Of a stretch of DNA of 64,000 nt, positions 1 through 59,840 are shown piece after piece. Location: assembly GCA_000002445.1 (NCBI GenBank), contig CM000208.1, positions 1,728,001 through 1,792,000 of the forward strand. Reading direction: 5' to 3'. The notes under the pieces are model-generated. The model was not told where the DNA came from. It saw nothing but the letters and a program-made list of their open reading frames with translations, and did not search any database. Both the position numbers and the translations under genes were made by a program. How positions within the stretch are numbered: position 1 is the stretch's first letter; each line of letters opens with the position of its first letter. The stretch is from Trypanosoma brucei. Taxonomy: Eukaryota.

Positions 1-362
1 CAAACAATACCCTCCAGGAAAATTAAAGCGGCGGGAGATTATAGCTAAGTGACTTCACAGAGGCACCAAAGGATGCCGTTAGCACAAAAAAACAGATTTC
101 ATATGTACTACATGTCACACGAAAAAAAAAGAGAGTTAATTTCAGGAGTAGTATACTAAAAGAGCAGCCAAAAAACCAGAATAAAATGAGGAAACTTTTG
201 ATACAAACACAAGAAAAAGTTTGTACGCCATTATTTGCTTAAATTTATCAAACATCAGATACAACCCGTTAGTATTAAACCCAGCCTGCGACAATTGCAA
301 CACAACATTTAAAAATGTTCTCTCCTTATTTCATAACGAAAAGTGAAGTGCACAACACAGCA

Positions 363-682
363 CCAACGCTGATAGAACATCAGGCAGCAAGGGTGACGCT
401 ACTGCCAAATGCGCCATAAGTGATGCCTACACGAGGAGTGCCATTAAGGCTTTTGCCTCCAACTTTCCAGAGGAACTGAACCGCGTTTTCATAGCCCATG
501 GGTTGCTTGACGAGAACGTTCACTTCTGTCACACGAGCGTTGTGGTTAATGCCATGATCGACGCGGGCAAACCGTGCTGCAGCGTTGTTTACCCTGGTGA
601 GCGCCACTCCCTTCGGAAGAAGAAGGCATCGCGACTACACCATGACGCGATGCTCGCAAAGACACTTATGGAGGTGCTTTAA
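363..682 (+). pseudogene. Truncated 3'-terminal fragment (last ~107 codons plus stop) of the S9/DPP8-like serine peptidase gene. It duplicates 10098..10417 and has no 5' part. The preceding 1..362 is AT-rich and non-coding.
   Basis: Near-identical nucleotide match to 10098..10417, with one A/G difference at 377 versus 10112. The fragment encodes ...GLLDENVHFCHTSVVVNAMIDAGKPCCSVVYPGERHSL... and ends at the same TAA. The upstream 362 bp shows no similarity to the peptidase body. Confidence 0.8.
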
Positions 683-948
683 TTGTGGACTACTTGCGTT
701 GTGTAGTGTACTGGTAGCGGTTGCTTAATTACGAGGGAAACATGCTTGTTGCACATCTGTGTGGCTGGGGATGTGCTTGACCAATAATGATGATAACATC
801 TGCGGCAGTGCTCGCGTGCACTTTAATTTATTTTTGTATGGGAAGAGTCACACACCATTTCTACCTTCCCTGCCTTCCGTGCTACAGTAGTTGTACCCGT
901 TTCCGCTGTGCTGCAACCAATATGTTCATTTCACTATGCATTTCCAAT

Positions 949-964
949 ACACACACACACACAT
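949..964. repeat. (AC)8 microsatellite, duplicated at 10684..10699 within the segmental duplication. Other dinucleotide microsatellites: (AT)n at 20633..20647, (TG)10 at 44708..44726, (CA)10 at 48689..48709.
   Basis: Seen directly. Confidence 0.9.
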
Positions 965-3605
965 GCACATACATTTTCCTTCTAGTATATGTACCGTAGC
1001 ACCACAACGAATGCCCACCACCCTTGTGAGAATGATGAGATTGCCATCATACTATTGGAAGACGAGTCTGAACCCTGATGCATTTTATCATGCGGCACTG
1101 ACGATCTTACATTGCGGTTAGTTGTGATCCCCTTGCCCATGTGTTTTTGTATGCTGCTTGCAGGAACGTGGCAGGCCACCGAGGTCACACTCGTGCTTCG
1201 CGTGGTTCAACAACATGGTCCCAGATTGTAGGTTCTTTGTTACTGGTGTGTATGATGAGAAACCTATTTTTATGTAACTCGGGAGAACTGAGCATATTAC
1301 CTGATGAGTAAACAATCAATCGTTAGATAGTAGCACTGATGTTACCTCTTGGTTTTATGTGTGTTGTAACTTTCCACTGTTGTCATTATCATCCCCTTTA
1401 ATAGCGAGTGGTCTTTGTGTGCATCTCCGCAAACCACTCGTCTACACCGGGGGAAAGATAAACGAGTGGAATGTTGTTAGTGTTGTGTGTCTGTGTCCGT
1501 CGTACTAGTAAAGGATGATGAGGATGCGGCCACCCCACGCGACGTGATGCGGTGTGTTGTTGACACTGCAGGCGTGTAGTTTCCCCTCCGCTGCCGTTGC
1601 AAAAGCAAACCCATTTTGGGCAACATACGCAGCCGCGCGCCACAAGACGCCTCCACCGCTCGACGGGGTGCCGCCATGACGCGGGTCCCGAGCCAAAGTC
1701 CCTCGCCCGAATTTCCGAAGGCAGTGAGTGCCTCGCGTGGGGAGACCTGCGCGCAGTAAAACCTCGTGCCGCTGGCGGTGCGGGGGCCACCGGCTGTGGT
1801 GGTTGATCCCCTCTGGTGGATCCCACAGCAGCAACTACGCGGGCCGTACTTTCGTCGGTGCGAGACTCCCCACCCGGTGGTATGAATGGCGGGCACCACT
1901 GAGTACACGTATAGCCATGAGCGGCATGTGCAGAAGAGGGCTTACAAAGGAGGCAGCGCGAGCGAGCGAATGGGTAACACTGGCGCGCTGCAGAGAAAGC
2001 AGCATCATTTCACCGCATCCGTTTGCGGGCGTGTGGTGCGCACCCGCTGACTCGCATATGCGTTCACATTCACCTCCTCCTTCTTTTCTCATTTTTATCC
2101 CCTACTTGAGAACAGATACAAACTACCCCACCTTGCCATACCCCTTCACACACCTATTATGTATTGTACCTGCACCATCACGTGATGAGCATTCAATTCA
2201 CATCGCGACACACCGATGATTCAAATGAGTGAGCTACGAATGGAATAAATTAAATCGAGAAAGAACAGCTGAGATGCCTACGTGCTTGTGCGCTTGTGCT
2301 ACTTCCCCTCTTGTAGTCCCCCTTCTATACCTGTGTCGTCGTCATTCCATCTTAATCGAAGGTGATGTCTGTTCCTGATGACGAGCACTCATTTCAAGCT
2401 GCGCGAGCATAAGCGTGTTGCTCCGTGGTCGGGTGACGTGCGAGACACCGCTCACACCCTATTACTGTGATGGGTGCCCACTAGCCTTGTGAGAATGATG
2501 AGATTGCCATCATACTATTGGAAGACGAGTCTGAACCCTGATGCATTTTATCATGCGGCACTGACGATCTTACATTGCGGTTAGTTGTGATCCCCTTGCC
2601 CATGTGTTTTTGTATGCTGCTTGCAGGAACGTGGCAGGCTACCGAGGTCACACTCGTGCTTCGCGTGGTTCAACAACATGGTCCCAGATTGTAGGTTCTT
2701 TGTTACTGGTGTGTATGATGAGAAACCTATTTTTATGTAACTCGGGAGAACTGAGCATATTACCTGATGAGTAAACAATCAATCGTTAGATAGTAGCACT
2801 GATGTTACCTCTTGGTTTTATGTGTGTTGTAACTTTCCACTGTTGTCATTATCATCCCCTTTAATAGCGAGTGGTCTTTGTGTGCATCTCCGCAAACCAC
2901 TCGTCTACACCAGGGGAAAGATAAACGAGTGGAATGTTGTTAGTGTTGTGTGTCTCTGTGCTTTGAGTTGCCTCCGGTGTTCTTAACCTCAGACTCTGCT
3001 CTTACAGTTTCCGGTTTATCGTTTTTTTTCCTTTTGCCTTCATGTAAATATCTTTTTTTTTATCCTCTTGTGTGAACTTTGTACGGATGCTTTCCATCAC
3101 GGTACAACATAAGTGAGGTGTGTATTTTGTGATGTAATGTGGTTCTCGCGAGTGACGACTGGCCGTTGACCGGTTTGATCATAATAGCGAGTACATTAGC
3201 GCTTCATGATGTTTGTCTTTGCCCTGACGGTGTGGCACTGCAGAACGGGACAAGCTAACGTATCTGTGCTATGTTTTTGTCTGTACGTGCATATAAGATT
3301 TGTTTACCCGACGTTATATATTTGTTTGTGTTCGTTATTGTACACGTGTCTCTTCGCTGCTTGCACGATCCTCTTGCTACAAGAGCGGACGACCGTAGCT
3401 GCATCGGTAATAACTCCAACTGCTTTACCTCACTTTTCTGTTCCTTGTGTGGTAAGCAAACTGGCAAAGGTCTTAGCGGTTCGTGTGATTAGCAACGAAT
3501 CAGTAGCGATAGCCACCACCGTATCGTTTCGAATAGACACACGGCGAAAGGTGAAGGGACGTGTGTTACATTGAGTAAAATTGCAGAGGCACAGTATCGT
3601 TGATT

Positions 3606-4685
3606 ATGTCGGCCGGATCTCGTGGCCCACTTTCCCTGCTCATTGCCCGTGAACGTGATGCCAATGGTGTGAATGGCGATGTGAATGCAACGGCTGGACG
3701 CCTGCGTGACCGATACGATGGGAAGGGTGCCTCCGCCAGTGAGCGACGGCAGGATGCGACATCGCTGACCAACGAGTACTACGATATCGTTACAGATTTC
3801 TATGAATACGGTTGGGGGCAAAACTTCCACTTTGCTCCTCGGTACATGAATGAGACGTTCTACGAATCACTCGCACGGTATGAGTACTTTCTTGCGTACC
3901 ATGCTCAGTTCAAACCGACGGACACTGTGCTAGACGTTGGCTGCGGGATTGGTGGGCCAGCACGAAACATGGTACGGTTCACATCGTGCAACGTGATGGG
4001 TGTAAATAATAATGAGTATCAAATAAATCGCGCGCGGCAGCACGATTCCCGCTACGGGATGAGCGGTAAAATTAACTACACTAAGACCGACTTCTGTAAC
4101 ATGTGCTTTGGCGACAACGAGTTCGACGGAGCATACGCCATCGAGGCGACATGCCACTCAGAGAGTAAGGTAAAGTGCTATAGTGAAGTGTTTCGCGCTA
4201 TCAAACCTGGTGCCTACTTTATGCTGTACGAGTGGTGTTTGACGGACCTGTATGACCCGGCAAATGAGGAACACCAGCGTGTCCGGCATGGTATCGAACT
4301 TGGCGACGGTCTTCCTGAACTCGACACGATGCGGCAGGTTGTCGCAGCGGTAAAGGCCGCCGGTTTCGTTGTGGAAGAGAGCTTTGACATGGCGGAACGA
4401 TTCGAAAGTGGCGAGCCGAAGAGCGTCCCGTGGTATGAGCCACTGCAGGGGAGTTACACGTCGCTGAGTGGACTTCGGGCGACCCCTGCAGGGCGCTGGT
4501 TGACGAGTGTAACATGTCGTTTGCTCGAGGCTGTGCGCCTCGCACCGGCAGGTACATGTAAGGCGACAGAGATCCTCGAAGAAGGAGCGGTGAACCTTGT
4601 CAAGGGGGGCGAACTTGGGATATTCACGCCATCCTTCTTTGTGAAGGCGCGTAAACCGCGTCTTGGGGAAGAGCTGTCGTGCTAA
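3606..4685 (+). CDS. SMT: Sterol 24-C-methyltransferase (SAM-dependent; ERG6/SMT family).
   Basis: The track ORF starts at TTG 3600; the first ATG is 3606 (MSAGS...). The protein carries the SAM-binding motif VLDVGCGIGGP and the conserved YEYGWGQNFHF and EATCHSE motifs. It aligns along its full length with kinetoplastid SMT (about 360 aa). Confidence 0.93.
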   Translation: MSAGSRGPLSLLIARERDANGVNGDVNATAGRLRDRYDGKGASASERRQDATSLTNEYYDIVTDFYEYGWGQNFHFAPRYMNETFYESLARYEYFLAYHAQFKPTDTVLDVGCGIGGPARNMVRFTSCNVMGVNNNEYQINRARQHDSRYGMSGKINYTKTDFCNMCFGDNEFDGAYAIEATCHSESKVKCYSEVFRAIKPGAYFMLYEWCLTDLYDPANEEHQRVRHGIELGDGLPELDTMRQVVAAVKAAGFVVEESFDMAERFESGEPKSVPWYEPLQGSYTSLSGLRATPAGRWLTSVTCRLLEAVRLAPAGTCKATEILEEGAVNLVKGGELGIFTPSFFVKARKPRLGEELSC

Positions 4686-6147
4686 CTGTGGCCGGGGACT
4701 ATTGGTGTTTTCTTTAGAGGGTAGCAGTCTCATTTGCTCCATATGTGAGAGTGCCCTTCAGCTTCATCTCGGCACAGAGGCCGCACGCTGTGAAGTAGTG
4801 CTTGTTTGGCAGGAAGGGGAGCGGTCAGTTTTGTTGCGGTCGACGTGGTGGTGGGTGTAACCGCTGTACGTATCAGTTAGCGTATTTTTAACCATATATT
4901 CCCCCTATTTCTCTATACTGTGAAGCACACACGTGCGCGGACACACTAATTATTATACGCACGCATATACGAGGCGTTACGGTGTATCGCGTTCCACCAC
5001 TTGCGCGTGACGGGACCCTTTGATCGTATTTAAATGCTGGTGTCTTCCACATACTCCTTCCTTCAGTCTGCCTTCAACTCCGGTGAGGCGGCTGTGACTT
5101 GCGTGAATGCGAGTGAGAGTGTGTTATGAACAGCAACGGACGGAATGAAGTTACTTGCATCCTGGTCAATACTGGACAGATGTGTGCCGATGTTCCGGCC
5201 TCGCCCCGGGTGTGGGTCGTTGACGGCACGAGTGGACGGGCGTGCCGCCGCCATTTGCGTGTCTTCCTTGTTCTTAATTTTCTCCGTTATTTTATATTTA
5301 TTTGTTAGCAATGGATTTCGGTGGTGATCGGTACGCGCGCGAACGAATATGTAATCCGCTGTTATTATTTGTTTTTGTTTTCGTTTTATTTTACCGGACG
5401 CACGGTGAGAGTGGTATGGCTGCGTTCTACACCCCACGATGTGTGAAAACGATATGCAGACCTGAACAGCTTTGCGGTGCGAAGTCCTGCAGCTCACCTA
5501 TGACTGTTGGTAGGCGTACGCACGGTTGTAAAAGTGTCACAAGGTTTGTTTATCGTGGCGGAGTCGATGGTAGAACGACCGCAGCGTGCCTTCGGCCATT
5601 TGCGTCATTGTGCATGCTTGGGTGGGCATGAGAGGTGTGAGTCCTCTTGGGGAGACGTGTGCTTGGCAGAGGCCTCTCTGCAATGAATTTACCAACAGTG
5701 TTATTTTCCCGTAGGTTTTGAGCCCTGTTGCACTTCTCTGACCGGCTTTCATCCCCTTAACCGCTACCCTCTTCCGTTTTGTAACTGAATCAGTATGTGT
5801 GCAGCACCATCTACATGGATCTGGTGTCTGTATATTCACACATATGCTTCCTTCCTCCTAATTGTTGATTGTTCTTCCGTTTGCGGGGTGGCATTTGGCT
5901 ATTGGGTGTGAAACACCGTGCCCGCAAGTATGTTGCTGATTTTTTCCCAACTACCTGCACCCTATTCAAACTGTTCTTTTCTGTTACTTTTCCATATGCT
6001 CCCTTTGTAGCCATTGAACGGTAAGCGTAAACAGCGTTGGCGCGTGCTTCCTCCAGAATCATTTATCTAATAAGGTCGGGGGTGTGAAGAAACATAAGTG
6101 GTTACTGACCCTTAACGCAGTGTCTTTGCAGTGAGCCTCACTGAAGC

Positions 6148-7110
6148 ATGGTAACACCCGAGCAAGCTGCCCTTATCGAGGGGGCGTTCCGTTCGATGGA
6201 CCGTGACGGTACGGGGCTGGTGCGACTTGAGGATATTTTCCGTGTCTTCGATGACTCGAGACATCCTCGTGTTCGCGACGGTGAGCTGGCTCCAGCAGCG
6301 ACGCGTGACATGCTGATGCACCAGTTTGGCGCAACCGCGCAGGCACACGGTGGCGTCTCGTTTGATGTGTTCATGCGCTTCCACGAACGTATGGCCGAAG
6401 ATGCAGCTGTTGCGAAGGTGAATGATAAAGAGTTGTTCCTCACGGACACCATAATTGGTGTCTGGCGCCTGGGCACGCTCCTTCAACCGACCCTCATTCG
6501 ACCTCTCTTTCCCGTTAATGTTCGTCCAAGCGGATTATACGCAACTCAGTACATGTCACTTGTGTGGGTAGACGAAGTCGCTGGTCCGGGGTCGTTCGTT
6601 GTACACGTCGTTCGCGATGTTGTGCGGCCGATATTCTCCCGGGGTGACCTACCGCCACAGTTACGTGGCATGTTCGCCTACCCGACAGAACTTGCAGGCA
6701 TGAAGATTATCGAGGAGCGCTTGCAGATCGCCACCCAACGATGGCTGGACTTTGTGTGGGAATACGAAGAAGGCAAGCACGCTGCCGTTCCTGGCATTAT
6801 ATCGGCTCGCGTCGATCCCGATACGCTTCCACAGTACCTCCGTGACATGATTGTGGAACATGATGTGGCAAAAGCGATACCTTCGCTGTTCTTTGTGCCA
6901 ACATCTGTGGCTGTTAACCCCATGTACAAGCGTTCAAGCGAGGAGTATGGCTACGGAGTTCCTGAAGAAGTAAAGCGTATGAGCAGGTGGAAGGACCTTA
7001 CCTATTCTGGTCAGGCGTGTGGGCTGATATACCATGGCCGCGTGGGAAAGTTCACAAGGGAACGGCTGAACGCGCCCGTACAGGATGTGGCTAGTGCAAT
7101 GAACATTTGA
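6148..7110 (+). CDS. Hypothetical protein, 320 aa, with an N-terminal EF-hand-like calcium-binding loop (DRDGTGLVRLED).
   Basis: ATG verified at 6148. A long ORF in a T. brucei-like codon context; one canonical EF-hand loop near the N-terminus; no other recognisable domain. Confidence 0.6.
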   Translation: MVTPEQAALIEGAFRSMDRDGTGLVRLEDIFRVFDDSRHPRVRDGELAPAATRDMLMHQFGATAQAHGGVSFDVFMRFHERMAEDAAVAKVNDKELFLTDTIIGVWRLGTLLQPTLIRPLFPVNVRPSGLYATQYMSLVWVDEVAGPGSFVVHVVRDVVRPIFSRGDLPPQLRGMFAYPTELAGMKIIEERLQIATQRWLDFVWEYEEGKHAAVPGIISARVDPDTLPQYLRDMIVEHDVAKAIPSLFFVPTSVAVNPMYKRSSEEYGYGVPEEVKRMSRWKDLTYSGQACGLIYHGRVGKFTRERLNAPVQDVASAMNI

Positions 7111-7864
7111 GGGACGCAATTCCGCTTTCCAACGTTTTGTTGCTTATGTATATGCTGGTTGCGGTGGTGTGTGTAATTTCCATTCGCTTATACACGGGCC
7201 GCTTGGTTGCTTTGGGAGAGACGGTTGACTTTCTTTACCGTGATGTTGCCCGCCGTTATAGTAACCCTACATTTTTCAATTGTTGTACCCTTCTGTTTTT
7301 ACCCCGCCATTATTTTAGTACCCATGCTATTGAGAGTTTTACTGGAATGGGAGTAATGGGGAAGTGTAGCTTAATATTTCTATACTTTCTCAAAAAATGA
7401 TGGACGTATTTGATTGATGTAGTGTCGATTTACATTGTGCCATTGCCGCGGTTTTATGAGCTGATCACAATCCCATTGTTTGTAGGTTGTGGAAGACCAG
7501 CGGCGGTCAGACAAAGGCGGTCGATGGTGGAACTCGTGGGCATGTCTACGGGTTGTGTAGTACGTGGGTGCGCAAGTGGGCATTACTCGTTGTTCTTATA
7601 CTTTGTGTTCTACCTTTGTGAAGTATGCCCCTTAAACAGCTTACCTGTAGCTCTATGCATCTATAGCTGTCAGTTCGCCACCCTTGCCAGCTTGGTGTGA
7701 GCATCTTTTCTTACTTGCAACAGCTTGTGTCTTGCGTTTTTCCTCTAACCTCCGCATCCCTAACCCTTAATGAGTGGGTATCTACTTTTTTGTTTTTAGT
7801 AACGAGCTTCATCACCTAGAAATAGTCCACCTCACGTAGTCAGTCAGGAAGAGAGGGGTGTAAA

Positions 7865-10417
7865 ATGCCGACCTTGCCTTTGTCGAAATATATTGATGAA
7901 CTAAAAGCTCTTGAGGGGCTCCTCGCTGTAGATGGGAAGCCTCGTATGTTGAAGTTTGTTGGTGATCAGCTGTATTGGCTGCAGGGTATGGATCAGGAAC
8001 TTTACAGTGTAAATATTGCAGATCACAACGCAACCCCGAGTCGCGTCATTGATCGCTGTCGGAAAGGTTGCACAGCTGCAGAAGGCAAGGAAGGTTCCAC
8101 TGTTGAGACAAAGGAGGAGGAGTTGCTGCGGGAGCGGCTGCGATCTCGCGTGACGGGCATCAGCAGCTACCGTGTACGGTGCAGGGACGGTGCTGTTTTC
8201 TTCACAAGTGGAGCAAACATATTTCTATACCGCCCCGCAAGCGGCAAACCACCGCTGAAAGTACTTGACTATATCGGTGATGAGGAACTGAAGCAACGCT
8301 TCTCCTCAGAGAAGAAACCATTTCTCTGCATTGAATACTTTTCCCACTTGGCGAATGATGCGGGTGCATGTGATTCAACCAAGGAGCGTGCCGACGTGAT
8401 CTCTTTTGTGTACAGCAATAACTTGTATATTGCGACCGTTGTGGAAGGTAGTGGTGAGGCCAGCCACTCAAGGGAACCACCCTTGAGGGTGAATGTGGAA
8501 TGCGTGACAACTTTCGGCGACGAGTTACACAGTTGTGGGGACGCCGACTACATTATCCAGGAGGAATTCGGTCGTTACACCGGGCACTACGCCACAGCTG
8601 AATATGTGCTGTTCAGCTATACAGACGTGTCCATGCTGCGCGAGGTGATGCTAATTGACGGTTCGACTGACTCTGGTGTGGAAAAGATGCCGTACTGCCG
8701 TGTTGGTGACCCGAATGCCCGCACTGTGCTCGTAGTGTACGAAAGGCGGACAAAGCGTTATCGTGTTGTCCCGAGCAGTGCTATTGCAGCCATTGCACCG
8801 TGGGCGGAGTACATGCCTCGGTTTGGGTTTAAGGACGAACACACCATTTACTTTTCTGTTCTCAGTCGCACGCAGGAGAAAATGTCTCTCCTTTCGTGCC
8901 GTATTAACTCTCTACCTGTTGTTGATGCGGAAGCACTTGCATCGTGCTTTTCCGAAGCAGCGCGTGACACTGATGTCGCAGCGGTGGCTGCAGGAACAAC
9001 ACTGGCTACCCGTGCGGCGACAGTCAATCTCACCACAGAGTGGCACCAGCATATACCGTGGGCATGGGTAGATGTCCAACCCGGTGTCGCACTTCACCTT
9101 TGCGGCAAGTATGAAGTGCTCGTTCGCCACGCCAATGAGAGTGAGAGTGCGCACAGTCATGTGTACGCCCGTGCTCAAGGGGGTGATGAGGGTTCGTGGC
9201 GACCACTTACCTGTGGCGCTTGGAACGTGAGAGCTGGAGGCCTTATAGTGAAGGACGACAGGGTTTTCTTCCTTGCTAATGCAAGAAACAGGCTGGAGAG
9301 TGTGCTATACAGCGTTGTGATAAACCTGGATGCAGGTCCTGTTTCTGCCGAGGAGCTGACACAGCTAACACCCTCCGGCGAGCACGTGTACTCTTTCGCA
9401 GTGTTGAACAATACACTTTGCTATGTGTCGAGCACTGCGACCACACCAGCAGAGCTTCACATCTCCTCAATAAACAACCCTGGAAGCCGCTGGGTCGTTC
9501 CGACGCGGCATCTGTGGGATGATACCAGCGAAAAGGCAGTCACCCCACGTACAACGCTCGAGGGACTCACCGTCCCGCACATTATCAACATCGTGAACCG
9601 CCGTGGTGTTCCACTCAGTGGCCGACTGTTTGTATCTCCTCACGCGGCACTAGGTAAGCTGAACCCTTTAGCAATGTATATCTATGGTGGTCCCCACGCA
9701 CAACTCGTGTACGACAGTGACTTCGACGGTGCCTGCAAGCCAATTTTCCAGATGCTGGCGAGCTTTGGTATATCCGTACTTGTCGCTGACGGTCAAATGA
9801 GCAATGCGAATGGCCTACGGGACCATAGCATCTGCAAGCACAGCATGGGGAGCTTTGAGACCTCCGATTACGTGGATTGGGTGCGGCACATGACAAACTG
9901 CAAGGAACTACCGTGTGGGTTTTGTGCGGATCCTGAACGGGTTGCCATCTTCGGCTGGTCGTATGGAGGTTATGCAACACTGCTTGCAATGTCGCAGGCT
10001 CCAGATGTGTTTAAGATAGGGTTTGCAGGGGCACCTGTGGGGGATTGGACTCTCTATGACACTGGATACACAGAGCGCTATATGGGTCTGCTGCACACCA
10101 ACGCTGATGGAACATCAGGCAGCAAGGGTGACGCTACTGCCAAATGCGCCATAAGTGATGCCTACACGAGGAGTGCCATTAAGGCTTTTGCCTCCAACTT
10201 TCCAGAGGAACTGAACCGCGTTTTCATAGCCCATGGGTTGCTTGACGAGAACGTTCACTTCTGTCACACGAGCGTTGTGGTTAATGCCATGATCGACGCG
10301 GGCAAACCGTGCTGCAGCGTTGTTTACCCTGGTGAGCGCCACTCCCTTCGGAAGAAGAAGGCATCGCGACTACACCATGACGCGATGCTCGCAAAGACAC
10401 TTATGGAGGTGCTTTAA
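7865..10417 (+). CDS. Serine peptidase, clan SC family S9 (dipeptidyl-peptidase 8-like / prolyl oligopeptidase fold), 850 aa.
   Basis: ATG at 7865. The C-terminal alpha/beta-hydrolase domain carries the catalytic Ser in GWSYGGY, the Asp in HGLLDENVHF and the His in GERHSL. The N-terminal region matches a beta-propeller in length. Confidence 0.88.
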   Translation: MPTLPLSKYIDELKALEGLLAVDGKPRMLKFVGDQLYWLQGMDQELYSVNIADHNATPSRVIDRCRKGCTAAEGKEGSTVETKEEELLRERLRSRVTGISSYRVRCRDGAVFFTSGANIFLYRPASGKPPLKVLDYIGDEELKQRFSSEKKPFLCIEYFSHLANDAGACDSTKERADVISFVYSNNLYIATVVEGSGEASHSREPPLRVNVECVTTFGDELHSCGDADYIIQEEFGRYTGHYATAEYVLFSYTDVSMLREVMLIDGSTDSGVEKMPYCRVGDPNARTVLVVYERRTKRYRVVPSSAIAAIAPWAEYMPRFGFKDEHTIYFSVLSRTQEKMSLLSCRINSLPVVDAEALASCFSEAARDTDVAAVAAGTTLATRAATVNLTTEWHQHIPWAWVDVQPGVALHLCGKYEVLVRHANESESAHSHVYARAQGGDEGSWRPLTCGAWNVRAGGLIVKDDRVFFLANARNRLESVLYSVVINLDAGPVSAEELTQLTPSGEHVYSFAVLNNTLCYVSSTATTPAELHISSINNPGSRWVVPTRHLWDDTSEKAVTPRTTLEGLTVPHIINIVNRRGVPLSGRLFVSPHAALGKLNPLAMYIYGGPHAQLVYDSDFDGACKPIFQMLASFGISVLVADGQMSNANGLRDHSICKHSMGSFETSDYVDWVRHMTNCKELPCGFCADPERVAIFGWSYGGYATLLAMSQAPDVFKIGFAGAPVGDWTLYDTGYTERYMGLLHTNADGTSGSKGDATAKCAISDAYTRSAIKAFASNFPEELNRVFIAHGLLDENVHFCHTSVVVNAMIDAGKPCCSVVYPGERHSLRKKKASRLHHDAMLAKTLMEVL

Positions 10418-12345
10418 TTGTGGACTACTTGCGTTGTGTAGTGTACTGGTAGCGGTTGCTTAATTACGAGGGAAACATGCTTGTTGCACATCTGTGTGGC
10501 TGGGGATGTGTTTGACCAATAATGATGATAACATCTGCGGCAGTGCTCGCGTGCACTTTAATTTATTTTTGTATGGGAAGAGTCACACACCATTTCTACC
10601 TTCCCTGCCTTCCGTGCTACAGTAGTTGTACCCGTTTCCGCTGTGCTGCAACCAATATGTTCATTTCACTATGCATTTCCAATACACACACACACACATG
10701 CACATACATTTTCCTTCTAGTATATGTACCGTAGCACCACAACGAATGCCCACCACCCTTGTGAGAATGATGAGATTGCCATCATACTATTGGAAGACGA
10801 GTCTGAACCCTGATGCATTTTATCATGCGGCACTGACGATCTTACATTGCGGTTAGTTGTGATCCCCTTGCCCATGTGTTTTTGTATGCTGCTTGCAGGA
10901 ACGTGGCAGGCTACCGAGGTCACACTCGTGCTTCGCGTGGTTCAACAACATGGTCCCAGATTGTAGGTTCTTTGTTACTGGTGTGTATGATGAGAAACCT
11001 ATTTTTATGTAACTCGGGAGAACTGAGCATATTACCTGATGAGTAAACAATCAATCGTTAGATAGTAGCACTGATGTTACCTCTTGGTTTTATGTGTGTT
11101 GTAACTTTCCACTGTTGTCATTATCATCCCCTTTAATAGCGAGTGGTCTTTGTGTGCATCTCCGCAAACCACTCGTCTACACCGGGGGAAAGATAAACGA
11201 GTGGAATGTTGTTAGTGTTGTGTGTCTGTGTCCGTCGTACTAGTAAAGGATGATGAGGATGCGGCCACCCCACGCGACGTGATGCGGTGTGTTGTTGACA
11301 CTGCAGGCGTGTAGTTTCCCCTCCGCTGCCGTTGCAAAAGCAAACCCATTTTGGGCAACATACGCAGCCGCGCGCCACAAGACGCCTCCACCGCTCGACG
11401 GGGTGCCGCCATGACGCGGGTCCCGAGCCAAAGTCCCTCGCCCGAATTTCCGAAGGCAGTGAGTGCCTCGCGTGGGGAGACCTGCGCGCAGTAAAACCTC
11501 GTGCCGCTGGCGGTGCGGGGGCCACCGGCTGTGGTGGTTGATCCCCTCTGGTGGATCCCACAGCAGCAACTACGCGGGCCGTACTTTCGTCGGTGCGAGA
11601 CTCCCCACCCGGTGGTATGAATGGCGGGCACCACTGAGTACACGTATAGCCATGAGCGGCATGTGCAGAAGAGGGCTTACAAAGGAGGCAGCGCGAGCGA
11701 GCGAATGGGTAACACTGGCGCGCTGCAGAGAAAGCATCATCATTTCACCGCATCCGTTTGCGGGCGTGTGGTGCGCACCCGCTGACTCGCATATGCGTTC
11801 ACATTCACCTCCTCCTTCTTTTCTCATTTTTATCCCCTACTTGAGAACAGATACAAACTACCCCACCTTGCCATACCCCTTCACACGCCTATTATGTATT
11901 GTACCTGCACCATCACGTGATGAGCATTCAATTCACATCGCGACACACCGATGATTCAAATGAGTGAGCTACGAATGGAATAAATTAAATCGAGAAAGAA
12001 CAGCTGAGATGCCTACGTGCTTGTGCGCTTGTGCTACTTCCCCTCTTGTAGTCCCCCTTCTATACCTGTGTCGTCGTCATTCCATCTTAATCGAAGGTGA
12101 TGTCTGTTCCTGATGACGAGCACTCATTTCAAGCTGCGCGAGCATAAGCGTGTTGCTCCGTGGTCGGGTGACGTGCGAGACACCGCTCACACCCTATTAC
12201 TGTGATGGGTGCCCACTAGCCTTGTGAGAATGATGAGATTGCCATCATACTATTGGAAGACGAGTCTGAACCCTGATGCATTTTATCATGCGGCACTGAC
12301 GATCTTACATTGCGGTTAGTTGTGATCCCCTTGCCCATGTGTTTT
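10098..12345. repeat. Segmental duplication, copy 2 (the parental copy): the 3' end of the intact peptidase gene plus its downstream region. It contains 1.09 tandem copies of the ~1.47-kb unit (10743..12218, then a partial unit at 12219..12345).
   Basis: Matches 363..2953 (see copy 1). The internal repeat 12219..12345 equals 10743..10869. Confidence 0.9.
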
Positions 12346-56393: not shown

Positions 56394-59300
56394 TTACGGT
56401 TTCGCTTCATCTGAGGATTGAGTTACGGGTACGGCAAAAGATGCATCAGATAAGCATCGTGGCACCTCCTCCATCATAACCTCGTTGTCGCATATGACAA
56501 CCGCGTTCTGGCGTTCCCTTCCCAAAAATAAAACTGCCGACAGCCCCACCGCCAGTAACAAAAACGTGGAACCAACCAAAAGCAGCAATCCCGCACTGAC
56601 GCTCGATCCTTTCCCCTTTGCATTCGAGAACTTGGGGGAATCCTCAGTAGAGCATCCATCACAGAATGCAACAAGCTTTAACGAACACGAAGATTTCAAG
56701 AACATTCCGTCAGTCCCGTCCGCTGCATCGCTTACCTCCGTATCATTGCAGTCACCTGTGATGTCGCAATCATCAGTTTCATTGCAGTCACCTGTGATGT
56801 TGCAATCATCAGTTTCATTGCAGTCACCTGTGATGTCGCAATCATCGGTTTCATTGCAGTCACCTGTGATGTTGCAATCATCGGTTTCATTGCAGTCACC
56901 TGTGATGTTACAATCATCGGTTTCATTGCAGTCACCTGTGATGTCGCAATCATCGGTTTCATTGCAGTCACCTGTGATGTTGCAATCATCGGTTTCATTG
57001 CAGTCACCTGTGATGTTACAATCATCGGTTTCATTGCAGTCACCTGTGATGTCGCAATCATCGGTTTCATTGCAGTCACCTGTGATGTTACAATCATCGG
57101 TTTCATTGCAGTCACCTGTGATGTTGCAATCATCGGTTTCATTGCAGTCACCTGTGATGTTGCAATCATCGGTTTCATTGCAGTCACCTGTGATGTTGCA
57201 ATCATCGGTTTCATTGCAGTCACCTGTGATGTTGCAATCATCGGTTTCATTGCAGTCACCTGTGATGTCGCAATCATCGGTTTCATTGCAGTCACCTGTG
57301 ATGTTGCAATCATCGGTTTCATTGCAGTCACCTGTGATGTCGCAATCATCGGTTTCATTGCAGTCACCTGTGATGTTACAATCATCGGTTTCATTGCAGT
57401 CACCTGTGATGTCGCAATCATCGGTTTCATTGCAGTCACCTGTGATGTCGCAATCATCAGTTTCATTGCAGTCACCTGTGATGTTGCAATCATCGGTTTC
57501 ATTGCAGTCACCTGTGATGTTGCAATCATCGGTTTCATTGCAGTCACCTGTGATGTTACAATCATCGGTTTCATTGCAGTCACCTGTGATGTCGCAATCA
57601 TCGGTTTCATTGCAGTCACCTGTGATGTTGCAATCATCGGTTTCATTGCAGTCACCTGTGATGTCGCAATCATCGGTTTCATTGCAGTCACCTGTGATGT
57701 CGCAATCATCAGTTTCATTGCAGTCACCTGTGATGTTGCAATCATCGGTTTCATTGCAGTCACCTGTGATGTTGCAATCATCGGTTTCATTGCAGTCACC
57801 TGTGATGTTACAATCATCGGTTTCATTGCAGTCACCTGTGATGTTGCAATCATCGGTTTCATTGCAGTCACCTGTGATGTTGCAATCATCGGTTTCATTG
57901 CAGTCACCTGTGATGTTGCAATCATCAGTTTCATTGCAGTCACCTGTGATGTTGCAATCATCAGTTTCATTGCAGTCACCTGTGATGTTGCAATCATCAG
58001 TTTCATTGCAGTCACCTGTGATGTTGCAATCATCAGTTTCATTGCAGTCACCTGTGATGTTGCAATCATCAGTTTCATTGCAGTCACCTGTGATGTTGCA
58101 ATCATCGGTTTCATTGCAGTCACCTGTGATGTTGCAATCATCGGTTTCATTGCAGTCACCTGTGATGTTGCAATCATCAGTTTCATTGCAGTCACCTGTG
58201 ATGTCGCAATCATCAGTTTCATTGCAGTCACCTGTGATGTCGCAATCATCGGTTTCATTGCAGTCACCTGTGATGTTGCAATCATCAGTTTCATTGCAGT
58301 CACCTGTGATGTCGCAATCATCGGTTTCATTGCAGTCACCTGTGATGTTGCAATCATCGGTTTCATTGCAGTCACCTGTGATGTTGCAATCATCAGTTTC
58401 ATTGCAGTCACCTGTGATGTCGCAATCATCGGTTTCATTGCAGTCACCTGTGATGTTACAATCATCGGTTTCATTGCAGTCACCTGTGATGTCGCAATCA
58501 TCGGTTTCATTGCAGTCACCTGTGATGTCGCAATCATCGGTTTCATTGCAGTCACCTGTGATGTTGCAATCATCGGTTTCATTGCAGTCACCTGTGATGT
58601 TGCAATCATCGGTTTCATTGCAGTCACCTGTGATGTTGCAATCATCAGTTTCATTGCAGTCACCTGTGATGTTGCAATCATCAGTTTCATTGCAGTCACC
58701 TGTGATGTCGCAATCATCGGTTTCATTGCAGTCACCTGTGATGTTGCAATCATCGGTTTCATTGCAGTCACCTGTGATGTTGCAATCATCAGTTTCATTG
58801 CAGTCACCTGTGATGTCGCAATCATCGGTTTCATTGCAGTCACCTGTGATGTTGCAATCATCGGTTTCATTGCAGTCACCTGTGATGTCGCAATCATCAG
58901 TTTCATTGCAGTCACCTGTGATGTTGCAATCATCAGTTTCATTGCAGTCACCTGTGATGTTGCAATCATCAGTTTCATTGCAGTCACCTGTGATGTCGCA
59001 ATCATCAGTTTCATTGCAGTCACCTGTGATGTCGCAATCATCGGTTTCATTGCAGTCACCTGTGATGTTGCAATCATCAGTTTCATTGCAGTCACCTGTG
59101 ATGTCGCAATCATCGGTTTCATTGCAGTCACCTGTGATGTCGCAATCATCGGTTTCATTGCAGTCACCTGTGATGTTACAATCATCGGTTTCATTGCAGT
59201 CACCTGTGATGTCGCAATCATCGGTTTCATTGCAGTCACCTGTGATGTTGCAATCATCAGTTTCATTGCAGTCACCTGTGATGTCGCAATCATCGGTTTC

Positions 59301-59840
59301 ATTGCAGTCACCTGTGATGTTGCAATCATCAGTTTCATTGCAGTCACCTGTGATGTCGCAATCATCGGTTTCATTGCAGTCACCTGTGATGTTGCAATCA
59401 TCAGTTTCATTGCAGTCACCTGTGATGTCGCAATCATCGGTTTCATTGCAGTCACCTGTGATGTTACAATCATCGGTTTCATTGCAGTCACCTGTGATGT
59501 CGCAATCATCGGTTTCATTGCAGTCACCTGTGATGTTGCAATCATCGGTTTCATTGCAGTCACCTGTGATGTTGCAATCATCGGTTTCATTGCAGTCACC
59601 TGTGATGTTACAATCATCAGTTTCATTGCAGTCACCTGTGATGTTACAATCATCGGCGTAACCCGTAGCGTTCTTGTAGTCGAAGAAGAAATCATCATGT
59701 ACGGCATCAGCAGGGGGTGTGGCTACCTCAGCATTTGATTCTTCAAAGATTGGACCTGCCTCGTTAGCCATGCCAGGCACACACGCGGTGCTGGTGAATA
59801 AGACGGTCATAAACAAAGGAATGTAGTATTTGGCGGACAT
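56394..59840 (-). CDS. CRAM: CRAM: cysteine-rich, acidic, repetitive type-I membrane protein, a procyclic-stage flagellar-pocket putative lipoprotein receptor. It has a signal peptide, about 81 copies of a 12-aa repeat, a TM and a cytoplasmic tail.
   Basis: ATG at 59840-59838. N-terminal MSAKYYIPLFMTVLFTSTACVPG. The repeat CNETDDC(N/D)ITGD is 36 bp per unit. C-terminal TM AGLLLLVGSTFLLLAVGLSAVLFLG followed by a ~40-aa acidic tail. This matches the published description of T. brucei CRAM. Confidence 0.9.
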   Translation of the reverse strand: MSAKYYIPLFMTVLFTSTACVPGMANEAGPIFEESNAEVATPPADAVHDDFFFDYKNATGYADDCNITGDCNETDDCNITGDCNETDDCNITGDCNETDDCNITGDCNETDDCDITGDCNETDDCNITGDCNETDDCDITGDCNETDDCNITGDCNETDDCDITGDCNETDDCNITGDCNETDDCDITGDCNETDDCNITGDCNETDDCDITGDCNETDDCNITGDCNETDDCDITGDCNETDDCDITGDCNETDDCNITGDCNETDDCDITGDCNETDDCDITGDCNETDDCNITGDCNETDDCNITGDCNETDDCDITGDCNETDDCNITGDCNETDDCDITGDCNETDDCNITGDCNETDDCNITGDCNETDDCDITGDCNETDDCNITGDCNETDDCNITGDCNETDDCNITGDCNETDDCNITGDCNETDDCDITGDCNETDDCDITGDCNETDDCNITGDCNETDDCDITGDCNETDDCNITGDCNETDDCNITGDCNETDDCDITGDCNETDDCNITGDCNETDDCDITGDCNETDDCDITGDCNETDDCNITGDCNETDDCNITGDCNETDDCNITGDCNETDDCNITGDCNETDDCNITGDCNETDDCNITGDCNETDDCNITGDCNETDDCNITGDCNETDDCNITGDCNETDDCNITGDCNETDDCNITGDCNETDDCNITGDCNETDDCNITGDCNETDDCDITGDCNETDDCDITGDCNETDDCNITGDCNETDDCDITGDCNETDDCNITGDCNETDDCNITGDCNETDDCNITGDCNETDDCDITGDCNETDDCDITGDCNETDDCNITGDCNETDDCDITGDCNETDDCNITGDCNETDDCDITGDCNETDDCNITGDCNETDDCNITGDCNETDDCNITGDCNETDDCNITGDCNETDDCNITGDCNETDDCDITGDCNETDDCNITGDCNETDDCNITGDCNETDDCDITGDCNETDDCNITGDCNETDDCNITGDCNETDDCDITGDCNETDDCNITGDCNETDDCDITGDCNDTEVSDAADGTDGMFLKSSCSLKLVAFCDGCSTEDSPKFSNAKGKGSSVSAGLLLLVGSTFLLLAVGLSAVLFLGRERQNAVVICDNEVMMEEVPRCLSDASFAVPVTQSSDEAKP
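56745..59655. repeat. A 36-bp tandem repeat array of ~81 units that encodes the CRAM 12-aa repeat. The units differ at a few positions (aac/gac giving N/D; atcggt/atcagt silent).
   Basis: Seen directly: near-perfect periodicity of 36 bp over ~2.9 kb. Confidence 0.95.

What the first reader, a model, noticed from the sequence alone, without database searches (positions are those of the whole stretch)
1008..2953. GC-rich 1.47-kb non-coding unit, tandemly repeated 1.1-1.3 times downstream of the peptidase gene: candidate ncRNA cluster or retroelement relic
Both duplicate blocks contain a ~1469-1476-bp unit repeated head-to-tail (1008..2476 plus 477 bp of a second copy; 10743..12218 plus 127 bp). 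The unit is unusually GC-rich for an intergenic region (for example 1500..2050). It yields overlapping ORFs in several frames with no coding signature. It also carries snoRNA-like box motifs: AUGAUGA at ~1512, CUGAUGAG at ~1293 with CUGA ~35 nt downstream, and CCUGAUGAC at ~2383. In trypanosomes snoRNA genes occur as tandemly reiterated clusters of about this unit size, so an unannotated snoRNA or other small-RNA cluster is a real possibility. A decayed retroposon is the alternative.
Basis: partly seen in the sequence, partly recalled or inferred. Interest (0 to 1): 0.55.

Follow-up and report, generated by a model that had tools for sequence, protein, structure and literature searches.

The report
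Known trypanosome snoRNA cluster with MRP RNA

Summary
A 1463-bp unit (1012-2474) is followed by a 485-bp partial second copy. The same arrangement recurs 9735 bp downstream with a 136-bp partial copy. The middle of the unit is 62-64% GC and does not code for protein.

The interpretation "snoRNA cluster" is right; "unannotated" is wrong. Rfam hits far above threshold identify TB10Cs1H1, H2 and H3. Published Tb927 chromosome-10 coordinates minus 1,728,000 place seven annotated snoRNA genes per unit exactly on their box motifs. They also place the published RNase MRP RNA gene (Barth et al. 2008) at 1478-1998, over the GC-rich stretch.

I tested the MRP assignment independently. The stretch is conserved in seven trypanosomatids at the same syntenic position. 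It carries the P4 pseudoknot sequences, a six-nucleotide CR-IV and a P8 pentaloop hairpin, and several helices show compensatory changes. The Rfam MRP model does not detect it.

The retroposon alternative has no support.

One loose end remains. In three Trypanosoma species a C-box and a CUGA, joined by a long terminal helix, bracket the MRP core. That helix extends past the published 3' end.

The parts
361..682 (+). Relic of the 3' end of the S9 (DPP8-like) peptidase gene. It marks the start of duplicated block A and copies 10096-10417.
   Evidence: 99.8% identity to block B. (850-aa ORF at 7865-10417 with Peptidase_S9 and DPPIV_N domains). (window 1-360 has no counterpart in other T. brucei assemblies).
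1028..1104 (+). TB10Cs1C4, a box C/D snoRNA. Published role: guides LSU-beta Gm552 and interacts with ITS6.
   Evidence: Coordinates from PMC3091756 Additional file 1 minus 1,728,000. C box at 1032 and D box at 1098. Function. Three-way identity of 0.82 at 1054-1102.
1160..1228 (+). TB10Cs1H3, a single-hairpin H/ACA-like snoRNA ending in AGA plus 3 nt.
   Evidence: Rfam RF01524, 91.5 bits against a gathering score of 50. Coordinates. Sequence.
1248..1342 (+). TB10Cs1C1, a box C/D snoRNA with C box at 1252, C' at 1301 and D at 1336. Published role: guides LSU-beta 601 and 609 and acts in LSU processing.
   Evidence: The published silencing primer maps at 1230-1249. Function.
1389..1461 (+). TB10Cs1H1, an H/ACA-like snoRNA.
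   Evidence: Rfam RF01522, 97.2 bits against a gathering score of 45. Coordinates.
1478..1998 (+). RNase MRP RNA gene as published (Barth et al. 2008). This is the GC-rich part of the unit. Conserved core about 1586-1975.
   Evidence: PMC3091756 Additional file 2 lists MRP at Tb927_10_v4 1729478-1729998 and 1739213-1739733. Conservation. Structure test.
1515..1521 (+). C-box-like AUGAUGA, conserved in three Trypanosoma species 181-186 nt upstream of CR-I. Probably the basis of the name TB10Cs1C2 (inferred).
1656..1661 (+). P2 5' strand (CCGCUC). It pairs with 1919-1924 (GAGCGG).
   Evidence: C-G in Trypanosoma changes to U-A in Leishmaniinae, a compensatory change.
1665..1691 (+). P3-like hairpin: helix, internal loop, helix. 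The tip is extended in Leishmaniinae.
1695..1708 (+). CR-I (AAAGUCCCUC), the P4 5' strand with a bulged U. The next four bases, GCCC, can form a P5-like stem with the GGGC in 1890-1894.
   Evidence: local Rfam RNase_MRP match to model positions 71-101. (invariant in 7 species).
1719..1733 (+). P8 hairpin AGGCA-GUGAG-UGCCU. The pentaloop is GUGAG here and GCAAG in the other six species.
1735..1752 (+). P9-like hairpin closed by a GNRA tetraloop (GAGA, GAAA or GCAA depending on species).
   Evidence: two pairs with compensatory change.
1785..1880 (+). Specificity-domain helices. X pairs 1785-1793 with 1874-1880. Y pairs 1794-1802 with 1822-1831.
1911..1918 (+). CR-IV, AUAGCCAU. This is the six-nucleotide AGNNAU form typical of MRP RNA.
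   Evidence: Criteria from PMC13184271 and PMC1796607.
1930..1944 (+). CR-V, GCAGAAGAGGGCUUA, the P4 3' strand.
   Evidence: invariant in 7 species.
2047..2050 (+). CUGA (D-box-like) at the foot of the terminal helix. It lies 103-107 nt after CR-V in three Trypanosoma species and is outside the published gene.
2178..2275 (+). TB10Cs1C3, a box C/D snoRNA. Assigned to SSU Um1652 in the literature.
   Evidence: C box at 2182, D box at 2269..
2382..2448 (+). TB10Cs1H2, an H/ACA-like snoRNA.
   Evidence: Rfam RF01523, 87.3 bits against a gathering score of 50. Coordinates.
2475..2959 (+). Partial second unit: C4 2491-2567, H3 2623-2691, C1 2711-2805, H1 2852-2924.
10747..12345 (+). Block B, at the ancestral position between the peptidase gene and the EF-hand gene. 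Contents: C4 10763-10839, H3 10895-10963, C1 10983-11077, H1 11124-11196, MRP 11213-11733, C3 11913-12010, H2 12117-12183, and a second C4 at 12226-12302.
   Evidence: MRP copies identical at 521 of 521 positions. Synteny.

Best explanation
The unit is one repeat of the T. brucei snoRNA gene cluster TB10Cs1. Each full unit encodes eight small RNAs on the + strand, the same strand as the flanking protein-coding genes. In order they are:
- C/D snoRNA C4
- H/ACA-like H3
- C/D snoRNA C1
- H/ACA-like H1
- the RNase MRP RNA, about 520-540 nt, which is the GC-rich part
- C/D snoRNA C3
- H/ACA-like H2

The next unit then begins.

**Shown here:**
- the identity of the genes;
- their box motifs;
- their conservation and synteny across trypanosomatids;
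- the non-coding nature of the GC-rich stretch;
- the hallmark sequences and helices of the RNase P/MRP catalytic core.

**Taken from the literature:**
- C4 guides LSU-beta Gm552.
- C1 guides LSU-beta 601 and 609.
- Both C4 and C1 are needed for LSU pre-rRNA processing.
- C3 is assigned to SSU Um1652.
- MRP RNA takes part in early pre-rRNA processing.

**Inferred from established knowledge of trypanosomatid gene expression:**
- The cluster is transcribed by RNA polymerase II as part of the polycistronic unit.
- The individual RNAs are released by nucleolytic trimming up to the bound snoRNP proteins.
- Reiteration of the unit raises gene dosage.

The two blocks exist because a 9.7-kb segment was duplicated in T. 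b. brucei. That segment carries the sterol methyltransferase gene, a 320-aa gene, the peptidase gene and the cluster.
For: - **Rfam.** RF01522, RF01523 and RF01524 score 87-97 bits against gathering scores of 45-50, at 8 sites.
- **Published coordinates.** Subtracting 1,728,000 from the published coordinates puts every C/D gene 4-5 nt before a RUGAUGA and 3-4 nt after a CUGA. Every H/ACA-like gene then ends in AGA plus 3 nt. The offset also reproduces both repeat periods.
- **Primers.** Published silencing primers for C1 and C4 map inside the unit.
- **Conservation.** All blocks conserved between T. brucei, T. cruzi and T. melophagium coincide with these genes. Spacers are 2-20% identical.
- **Synteny.** The cluster with its MRP element lies downstream of the same peptidase gene in seven trypanosomatids.
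- **MRP test.**
  - A local Rfam RNase_MRP match covers CR-I plus P8.
  - On a 7-species core, 95.3% of cells pair, against 39-48% when partners are slid.
  - Five pairs show compensatory change.
  - No shuffle of 500 reaches the observed covariation score.
  - CR-IV is the six-nucleotide form and P5 directly abuts CR-I, which are the MRP-specific criteria of PMC13184271.
- **Not coding.**
Against: - The Rfam RNase_MRP model reaches only 8.8 bits (gathering score 50) and finds no trypanosomatid copy at threshold.
- The P8 loop is GUGAG or GCAAG, not GARAR.
- P4 and P5 never vary, so covariation neither supports nor tests them.
- The single-sequence fold energy is unremarkable, z = -1.06.
- The core alignment was spliced and the helices picked by hand from the same seven sequences, which fall into only two clades. 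The counts therefore lean towards the model.
- I could not read Barth 2008, Liang 2005 or Rosenblad 2021.
- Transcription and processing were not examined here.
Confidence: 0.93

Rival explanations
1. The unit is a decayed retroposon (an ingi, RIME, DIRE or SLACS fragment), and the box motifs are chance.
For: Only the general fact that such elements are common in T. brucei and that the unit is repeated. The unmatched, A-rich window 1-360 next to block A might be foreign sequence, but it lies outside the unit.
Against: - No ORF of the unit matches any Pfam family, so there is no reverse transcriptase or endonuclease remnant.
- Known RNA genes account for every conserved block of the unit.
- The unit sits at the same syntenic place in T. 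cruzi, T. melophagium and Leishmania. A T. brucei retroposon insertion would not.
Confidence: 0.01
2. The GC-rich stretch is a small protein-coding gene. Some assemblies call ORFs of 152-168 aa there.
For: A 163-aa ORF lies at 1728-2219. Gene callers placed a 168-aa ORF in each T. melophagium unit.
Against: - The ORFs of the two species do not align as proteins, best E-value 0.06 over 12 residues.
- 8-9 of the 9-10 indels per species pair break the reading frame.
- Mismatches show no third-position excess.
- No Pfam match.
- ORFs occur in several frames on both strands, as expected from a 62% GC sequence that is poor in stop codons.
Confidence: 0.01
3. The GC-rich RNA belongs to the P/MRP clan but is the RNA of a nuclear RNase P, not of RNase MRP.
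For: CR-I, CR-V and the P4 pseudoknot with a bulged U are shared by RNase P and MRP RNAs. The P8 loop departs from the MRP-specific GARAR consensus.
Against: - CR-IV has six nucleotides (AGNNAU), not the eight of RNase P.
- A P5-like stem directly abuts CR-I. In RNase P a P7 stem lies several nucleotides downstream instead. Both criteria come from PMC13184271.
- The only local Rfam hit is to RNase_MRP.
- Euglenozoa are listed as using protein-only RNase P (table in PMC9181182).
- The literature calls this RNA MRP and links it to rRNA processing.
Confidence: 0.04

Closest known systems
T. brucei snoRNA cluster TB10Cs1 (Liang et al. 2005; GeneDB Tb10_snoRNA_0001-0017; Rfam RF01522, RF01523, RF01524)
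   Same: It is the same locus. Coordinates, sequences, gene order and repeat periods all agree.
   Different: Nothing differs. The only gap is that I could not place TB10Cs1C2, which appears in one published table but not in the GeneDB list.
RNase MRP RNA of other eukaryotes (human RMRP, yeast NME1; Rfam RF00030)
   Same: - CR-I AAAGUCCC and CR-V GGGCUUA form P4 with a bulged U.
- CR-IV has six nucleotides.
- A P5-like stem abuts CR-I.
- The P8 hairpin GGCA-pentaloop-UGCC has the same stem as the Rfam consensus.
- The order of elements is P2, P3, P8, P9.
   Different: - About twice the length of human RMRP, and far longer in Leishmaniinae. The distance from CR-I to CR-V is 548-777 nt there, against 235-244 nt in Trypanosoma.
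- The P8 loop is GNRAG, not GARAR.
- Extra conserved 5' blocks are present (AAGCAAACCC, GCAGCCGC).
- It has a very long terminal helix.
- It lies inside a polycistronic snoRNA cluster rather than being a stand-alone gene.
- It is not detected by RF00030.
- From my memory of the abstract of Rosenblad et al. 2021, which I could not read here, no P/MRP protein subunits have been found in kinetoplastids.
T. brucei telomerase RNA (TbTR), a large RNA that uses the box C/D snoRNP pathway
   Same: If the C-box/CUGA frame seen here is functional, the MRP RNA of Trypanosoma would be a second large catalytic-RNP RNA capped by a C/D motif. Flagellate telomerase RNAs bind Nop58 and Snu13 (PMC4993307).
   Different: No binding data exist for the MRP RNA. 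The frame is absent from Leishmaniinae. The published 3' end excludes the CUGA.
Other reiterated trypanosomatid snoRNA clusters, for example TB11Cs2 with SLA1 and snR30
   Same: Interspersed C/D and single-hairpin H/ACA-like genes in tandem repeats that also harbour rRNA-processing RNAs (PMC3273796).
   Different: From the abstract of Barth 2008 as I remember it, MRP RNA was found in one of the snoRNA clusters; PMC3091756 lists only the two MRP sites in this window. I did not check whether any other cluster carries it.

Membership tests
TB10Cs1 H/ACA-like snoRNAs (Rfam RF01522, RF01523, RF01524) | Covariance-model score at or above the curated gathering score | tested here: met
   87.3-97.2 bits against gathering scores of 45-50, full-length matches at 8 sites, all on the + strand.
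TB10Cs1 H/ACA-like snoRNAs | A single hairpin followed by an AGA box 3 nt from the 3' end | tested here: met
   H3 ends ...CCCAGAUUG, H1 ends ...AAAGAUAA and H2 ends ...GCGAGACAC. The hairpin structure appears in the Rfam alignment.
Box C/D snoRNAs TB10Cs1C1, C3 and C4 | C box RUGAUGA near the 5' end and D box CUGA near the 3' end, with internal C'/D' boxes | tested here: met
   C4: C box 1032, D' 1068, D 1098. C1: C box 1252, D' 1288, C' 1301, D 1336. C3: C box 2182, D 2269.
Box C/D snoRNAs TB10Cs1C1, C3 and C4 | At least 10 nt of complementarity to rRNA, placing the target 5 nt upstream of D or D' | not tested
The literature reports Gm552 (C4), positions 601 and 609 (C1) and Um1652 (C3), with knock-down evidence for C4 and C1.
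Annotated locus Tb10_snoRNA_0001-0017 plus MRP | Coordinates identical to the published annotation | tested here: met
   An offset of 1,728,000 fits all 17 snoRNA entries and both MRP entries, and both repeat periods.
RNase MRP RNA (RF00030) | Rfam covariance-model score at or above the gathering score of 50 bits | tested here: not met
   Only a local hit at 1695-1732 to model positions 71-101, 8.8 bits, E = 3.2. No hit at threshold in six trypanosomatid loci. This is an operational criterion of one model, not a biological one.
RNase MRP RNA | CR-I and CR-V forming the P4 pseudoknot with a bulged U | tested here: met
   AGuCCCUC at 1702-1709 of the alignment pairs with GAGGGCU. All 7 pairs are standard in all 7 species. 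They never vary, so this rests on conservation, not covariation.
RNase MRP RNA | Six-nucleotide CR-IV (RNase P has eight), located just before the 3' strand of P2 | tested here: met
   A(U/C)AG(C/U)(C/A)AU is followed directly by GAGCRG, the P2 3' strand, in all 7 species. Criteria.
RNase MRP RNA | P8 hairpin with a GARAR pentaloop | tested here: inconclusive
   The stem GGCA/UGCC is identical to the Rfam consensus. The loop has five nucleotides but reads GUGAG in T. brucei and GCAAG in the other six. PMC1796607 lists comparable variants, for example GCGAG.
RNase MRP RNA | A short P5 stem immediately adjacent to CR-I | tested here: inconclusive
   GCCC directly after CR-I can pair with an invariant GGGC upstream of CR-IV. 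That gives 4 of 4 pairs in 7 species, but they never vary.
RNase MRP RNA | Helices P2 and P3 supported by comparative analysis | tested here: met
   In P2, C-G changes to U-A between Trypanosoma and Leishmaniinae. The P3 inner helix has one compensatory change and two wobble changes, and lineage-specific insertions fall at its tip.
RNase MRP RNA | Endonuclease activity on pre-rRNA and association with Pop-type proteins | not testable with these tools
   The literature only states that MRP takes part in early pre-rRNA processing in T. brucei.
Retroposons ingi, RIME, DIRE, SLACS | Remnants of reverse-transcriptase or endonuclease ORFs | tested here: not met
   None of the five ORFs of the GC-rich part has a Pfam match at E <= 0.1.
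Retroposons ingi, RIME, DIRE, SLACS | Nucleotide similarity to the element consensus | not tested
   No reference sequences were available in the collections I could search.

The most novel reading that the evidence does not exclude
In the genus Trypanosoma the RNase MRP RNA may be made as a box C/D-capped RNA.

**What I saw.** A conserved AUGAUGA (window 1515) and a CUGA (window 2047) sit at the two feet of a long terminal helix of about 25-45 bp that encloses the whole MRP core. The span is 536-552 nt in three species.

**What it would mean.**
- The RNA's ends would be set by snoRNP-type trimming from the polycistronic cluster transcript, as for the neighbouring snoRNAs and for the trypanosome telomerase RNA.
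- The true 3' end would lie about 50 nt beyond the published one.

**Support.**
- The motifs keep their distances: 181-186 nt before CR-I and 103-107 nt after CR-V.
- Each species' own minimum-energy fold contains 18-26 bp of the helix. Shuffled versions reach that in 0/150, 0/150 and 3/150 trials.
- The two strands have drifted in sequence, to 22-30% three-way identity.

**Doubts.**
- Only three species were compared.
- Leishmaniinae lack the boxes.
- There is no clear outer stem (by eye, from the flanks printed).
- The published coordinates disagree.
- I could not check whether the primary papers already describe this.
Probability: 0.2. Interest if true: 0.5.

Novelty: already known. Interest (0 to 1): 0.12.

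Why it matters
As a finding it matters little. The locus is annotated, has its own Rfam families and has been dissected experimentally.

- **Value for the scan.** The result shows that sequence reading alone picked out a real small-RNA cluster. It also shows that a GC-rich, ORF-rich, non-coding stretch inside such a cluster can be a large structured RNA.
- **Practical point.** The Rfam RNase_MRP model misses the kinetoplastid MRP RNA entirely, so automated annotation will keep leaving this 0.5-kb gene blank, or will call spurious ORFs on it, as seen in T. melophagium.
- **Open question.** How kinetoplastid MRP RNA is processed and packaged is the part still worth pursuing. If the C/D-type frame in Trypanosoma is real, that question becomes directly testable.

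Tried and rejected
- **Tandem Repeats Finder** found nothing. Its longest period is 500 bp, so I used self-BLAST instead.
- **Single-sequence folding** of 1500-2100 on both strands gave z = -1.06 and -1.07, which is uninformative.
- **Rfam at E <= 10.** Over 16 kb it gave no MRP hit. Over 646 nt it gave only a local hit. Over 131 nt around CR-V it gave nothing relevant.
- **Metagenome scan** with the 19-nt CR-I pattern returned 44 loci. None matched the MRP profile, so all are chance matches.
- **Primary papers.** Barth 2008, Liang 2005, Piccinelli 2005 and Rosenblad 2021 are not held.
- **Tool alignment A1** of the full-length sequences misaligned P2 and P3 between the two clades. I therefore built a spliced 178-nt core with the insertions removed.
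- **P1 is unresolved.** The 7-bp candidate CGCUGCC/GGCAGCG (1589/1952) has one flip in T. cruzi but a mismatch in T. melophagium, so I do not claim it.
- **Very long duplex predictions** over 300-nt flanks are uninformative, because GC-rich flanks pair regardless of sequence. The 140-nt version needed shuffling controls.
- **Telomerase RNA** was considered for the GC-rich part and dropped. On reading the sequence I saw no telomere-template sequence.
- **More Trypanosoma species.** T. vivax and T. theileri contigs end just after the peptidase gene. The T. conorhini and T. grayi assemblies have almost no spacer there.
Full report
**1. The observation**

Self-comparison of the window shows a 2250-bp block at 361-2610 repeated at 10096-12345 with 99.8% identity. 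Inside it, 1012-1496 recurs at 2475-2959 (99.0%) and 10747-10882 recurs at 12210-12345 (98.5%). The unit is therefore 1463 bp long.

The middle of the unit is GC-rich: 62.6% at 1501-2000, against 48.1% for the whole window. It is full of overlapping ORFs on both strands that match no protein family.

**2. What it is**

Rfam gives full-length matches far above threshold to three families named after this very cluster, all on the + strand:
- TB10Cs1H3 at 1154-1225, 2617-2688 and 10889-10960
- TB10Cs1H1 at 1390-1460, 2853-2923 and 11125-11195
- TB10Cs1H2 at 2384-2446 and 12119-12181

The supplementary tables of Doniger et al. 2010 (PMC3091756) list every gene of the cluster with Tb927_10_v4 coordinates. 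Subtracting 1,728,000 converts them to window coordinates. The conversion reproduces both repeat periods. It also lands each C/D gene just before a RUGAUGA and just after a CUGA, and each H/ACA-like gene on a hairpin ending in AGA plus three bases. The window is therefore T. brucei TREU927 chromosome 10, positions 1,728,001-1,792,000.

The gene order in one unit is:

| Gene | Window coordinates |
|---|---|
| C4 | 1028-1104 |
| H3 | 1160-1228 |
| C1 | 1248-1342 |
| H1 | 1389-1461 |
| MRP RNA | 1478-1998 |
| C3 | 2178-2275 |
| H2 | 2382-2448 |

Published silencing primers for C1 and C4 map inside the unit. The third, at 2374, lies in a spacer that T. cruzi and T. melophagium lack.

**3. The GC-rich stretch**

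The same supplementary file lists "MRP, misc RNA, Barth et al. 2008" at the two positions that correspond to window 1478-1998 and 11213-11733. I could not read that paper, so I tested the assignment myself.

*Orthologous loci.* I fetched them through the flanking S9 peptidase gene. The same tandem unit lies between the peptidase gene and an EF-hand gene in T. cruzi (period 1419) and T. melophagium (period 1445).

*Conservation.* In a three-species alignment the stretch 1586-1975 is as conserved as the snoRNAs, at 50-84% three-way identity per 50 nt. Spacers fall to 2-20%. Every conserved block of the unit is one of the listed genes.

*Not coding.* Eight or nine of the nine or ten indels per species pair break the frame, mismatches show no codon phase, and the ORFs of two species do not align as proteins.

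*Wider distribution.* A profile of the element finds it downstream of the peptidase gene in Leishmania martiniquensis (four copies, period 2569), a second Leishmania, and two trypanosomatids from metagenomes.

**4. Is it an RNase MRP RNA?**

The Rfam model RF00030 does not recognise it. There is only a local 8.8-bit match of 1695-1732 to model positions 71-101, and no hit at threshold in any species. That local match, however, covers the most diagnostic part of the molecule: AAAGUCCC of CR-I followed by the P8 hairpin GGCA-pentaloop-UGCC.

Eleven sequence blocks are invariant or nearly so in all seven species. Among them:
- **CR-I**, AAAGUCCCUC. [quoted passage not shown]
- **CR-IV**, in the six-nucleotide form AGNNAU, directly before the 3' strand of P2.
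- **GCCC directly after CR-I**, which can form the short P5 stem.

The 2026 structural study of human RNase MRP uses the last two features, together with the P8 pentaloop, to separate MRP from RNase P (PMC13184271).

The loop is GUGAG in T. brucei and GCAAG elsewhere. That departs from GARAR, but similar departures have been reported in other protists (PMC1796607).

I built a 178-nt core from which I had removed the lineage-specific insertions, and scored a model with P2, P3, P4, P5, P8, P9 and two specificity-domain helices:
- 95.3% of cells pair, against 39-48% when the partners are slid.
- Five pairs show compensatory changes (P2, P3, P9 twice, helix Y).
- No shuffle of 500 reaches the observed covariation score.

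The caveats are plain. There are seven sequences in two clades, I chose the helices by eye from these same sequences, and P4 and P5 never vary.

Leishmaniinae carry a hairpin insertion exactly where P19 belongs, between P2 and CR-V. I conclude that the element is a divergent but genuine member of the P/MRP clan, of the MRP type, as published.

**5. How it works**

*Shown here:* gene identities, motifs, strand, conservation and synteny.

*From the literature:*
- C4 guides LSU-beta Gm552 and contacts ITS6.
- C1 guides LSU-beta 601 and 609 and contacts srRNA1 and ITS3.
- Knock-down of either disturbs LSU pre-rRNA processing (PMC6411936).
- C3 is assigned to SSU Um1652.
- MRP RNA takes part in early pre-rRNA processing.

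*Inferred from general knowledge of trypanosomatids:* all genes lie on the same strand as the flanking protein-coding genes. The cluster is therefore probably transcribed within the polycistronic unit, and the RNAs trimmed out of the precursor.

**6. History of the duplication**

- T. b. gambiense DAL972 has one copy of the segment: sterol methyltransferase gene, 320-aa gene, cullin-like gene, peptidase gene, cluster, EF-hand gene.
- Lister 427 has two tandem copies. The second lacks about 4.5 kb, including the cullin-like gene.
- The window matches the 427 arrangement from position 361 onward.

Block B is thus the ancestral site, as in T. cruzi, T. melophagium and Leishmania. Block A belongs to the upstream copy. 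Window 1-360 matches neither assembly.

**7. A loose end**

In the three Trypanosoma species an AUGAUGA lies 181-186 nt before CR-I, and a CUGA lies 103-107 nt after CR-V. The 30-45 nt after the first motif pair with the 30-45 nt before the second.

Each species' own minimum-energy fold contains 26, 25 and 18 of these pairs. Shuffling the 5' strand gives 3-5 pairs on average and reaches the observed number in 0, 0 and 3 of 150 trials. Both strands have drifted in sequence.

Leishmaniinae lack the boxes. They do show an even longer complementarity between the 5' and 3' flanks: it is stronger than shuffled controls by 1.5 to 4.8 standard deviations, and the cognate pair is the best in all four species.

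The published 3' end at 1998 would cut this helix. Either the published ends are approximate, or the helix belongs to a precursor. The name TB10Cs1C2 appears in one table but not in the gene list. By its number it must lie between C1 and C3, so it is probably the C-box-led 5' part of this RNA. That is inference.

**8. Verdict**

The finding is real and correctly guessed in kind, but it is an already known, annotated and experimentally studied locus. Interest is low. The only part that might be new is the C/D-like frame and terminal helix around the Trypanosoma MRP RNA, and I could not check that against the primary papers.

Noticed in passing
window 361-12345; L057 (T. brucei Lister 427) 1-22553; L058 (T. 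b. gambiense) 1-22553: The two blocks belong to a 9.7-kb tandem segmental duplication carrying the sterol methyltransferase gene, a 320-aa gene, the peptidase gene and the cluster. It is present in TREU927 and Lister 427. T. b. gambiense DAL972 has a single copy. The downstream copy has lost about 4.5 kb, including a cullin-like gene of 1166 aa that every other species keeps between the 320-aa gene and the peptidase gene. The junction is near window 7357-7395.
   Followed up: yes
window 1-360: This A-rich sequence has no counterpart upstream of the peptidase 3' end in Lister 427 or gambiense. The homology starts abruptly at 361, inside the peptidase reading frame. It could be a real truncation, possibly by an insertion, or an assembly join.
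   Followed up: partly
window 1515-1565 and 2005-2050; L001 13363-13914; L003 13496-14044: A C-box-like AUGAUGA and a CUGA sit at the feet of a long terminal helix enclosing the MRP core in three Trypanosoma species. The helix extends about 50 nt beyond the published 3' end of the gene.
   Followed up: partly
L008 14235-15710; L010, L011 and L012 equivalents: The Leishmaniinae versions of the MRP RNA are much larger. The distance from CR-I to CR-V is 548-777 nt, against 235-244 nt in Trypanosoma. Expansions fall at the P3 tip, after CR-I, in the specificity domain and at the P19 position. The CA-rich 5' flank and GU-rich 3' flank are complementary over more than 100 nt. Unit periods are 2569 bp (L008) and 2110 bp (L011).
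   Followed up: partly
window 1478-1998; L001, L003, L008, L010, L011, L012: Rfam 15 RNase_MRP (RF00030) detects none of the trypanosomatid MRP RNA genes at its gathering score. Gene callers put spurious 152-168-aa ORFs on them instead, for example L003 13496-14002.
   Followed up: yes
L004 12511-13143 (T. conorhini); L006 8783-9325 (T. grayi): These assemblies have only about 0.5-0.6 kb between the peptidase and EF-hand genes. T. conorhini keeps just a C4-like piece at L004 12839-12931. Either the repeated cluster collapsed in assembly or it lies elsewhere in these species.
   Followed up: no
window 56743-59656: A tandem array of a 36-bp unit, 80.9 copies at 96% identity. If translated it would give a 12-residue repeat.
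   Followed up: no
It falls in a T. brucei-specific insertion that T. cruzi and T. melophagium lack, so it is most likely chance.
   Followed up: yes
window 2640 and 2912: The partial second unit differs from the first by single bases inside H3 (C to T) and H1 (G to A, at a stem position that becomes a weaker pair in the Rfam alignment). The block B copy of H3 carries the same T as the partial unit.
   Followed up: partly
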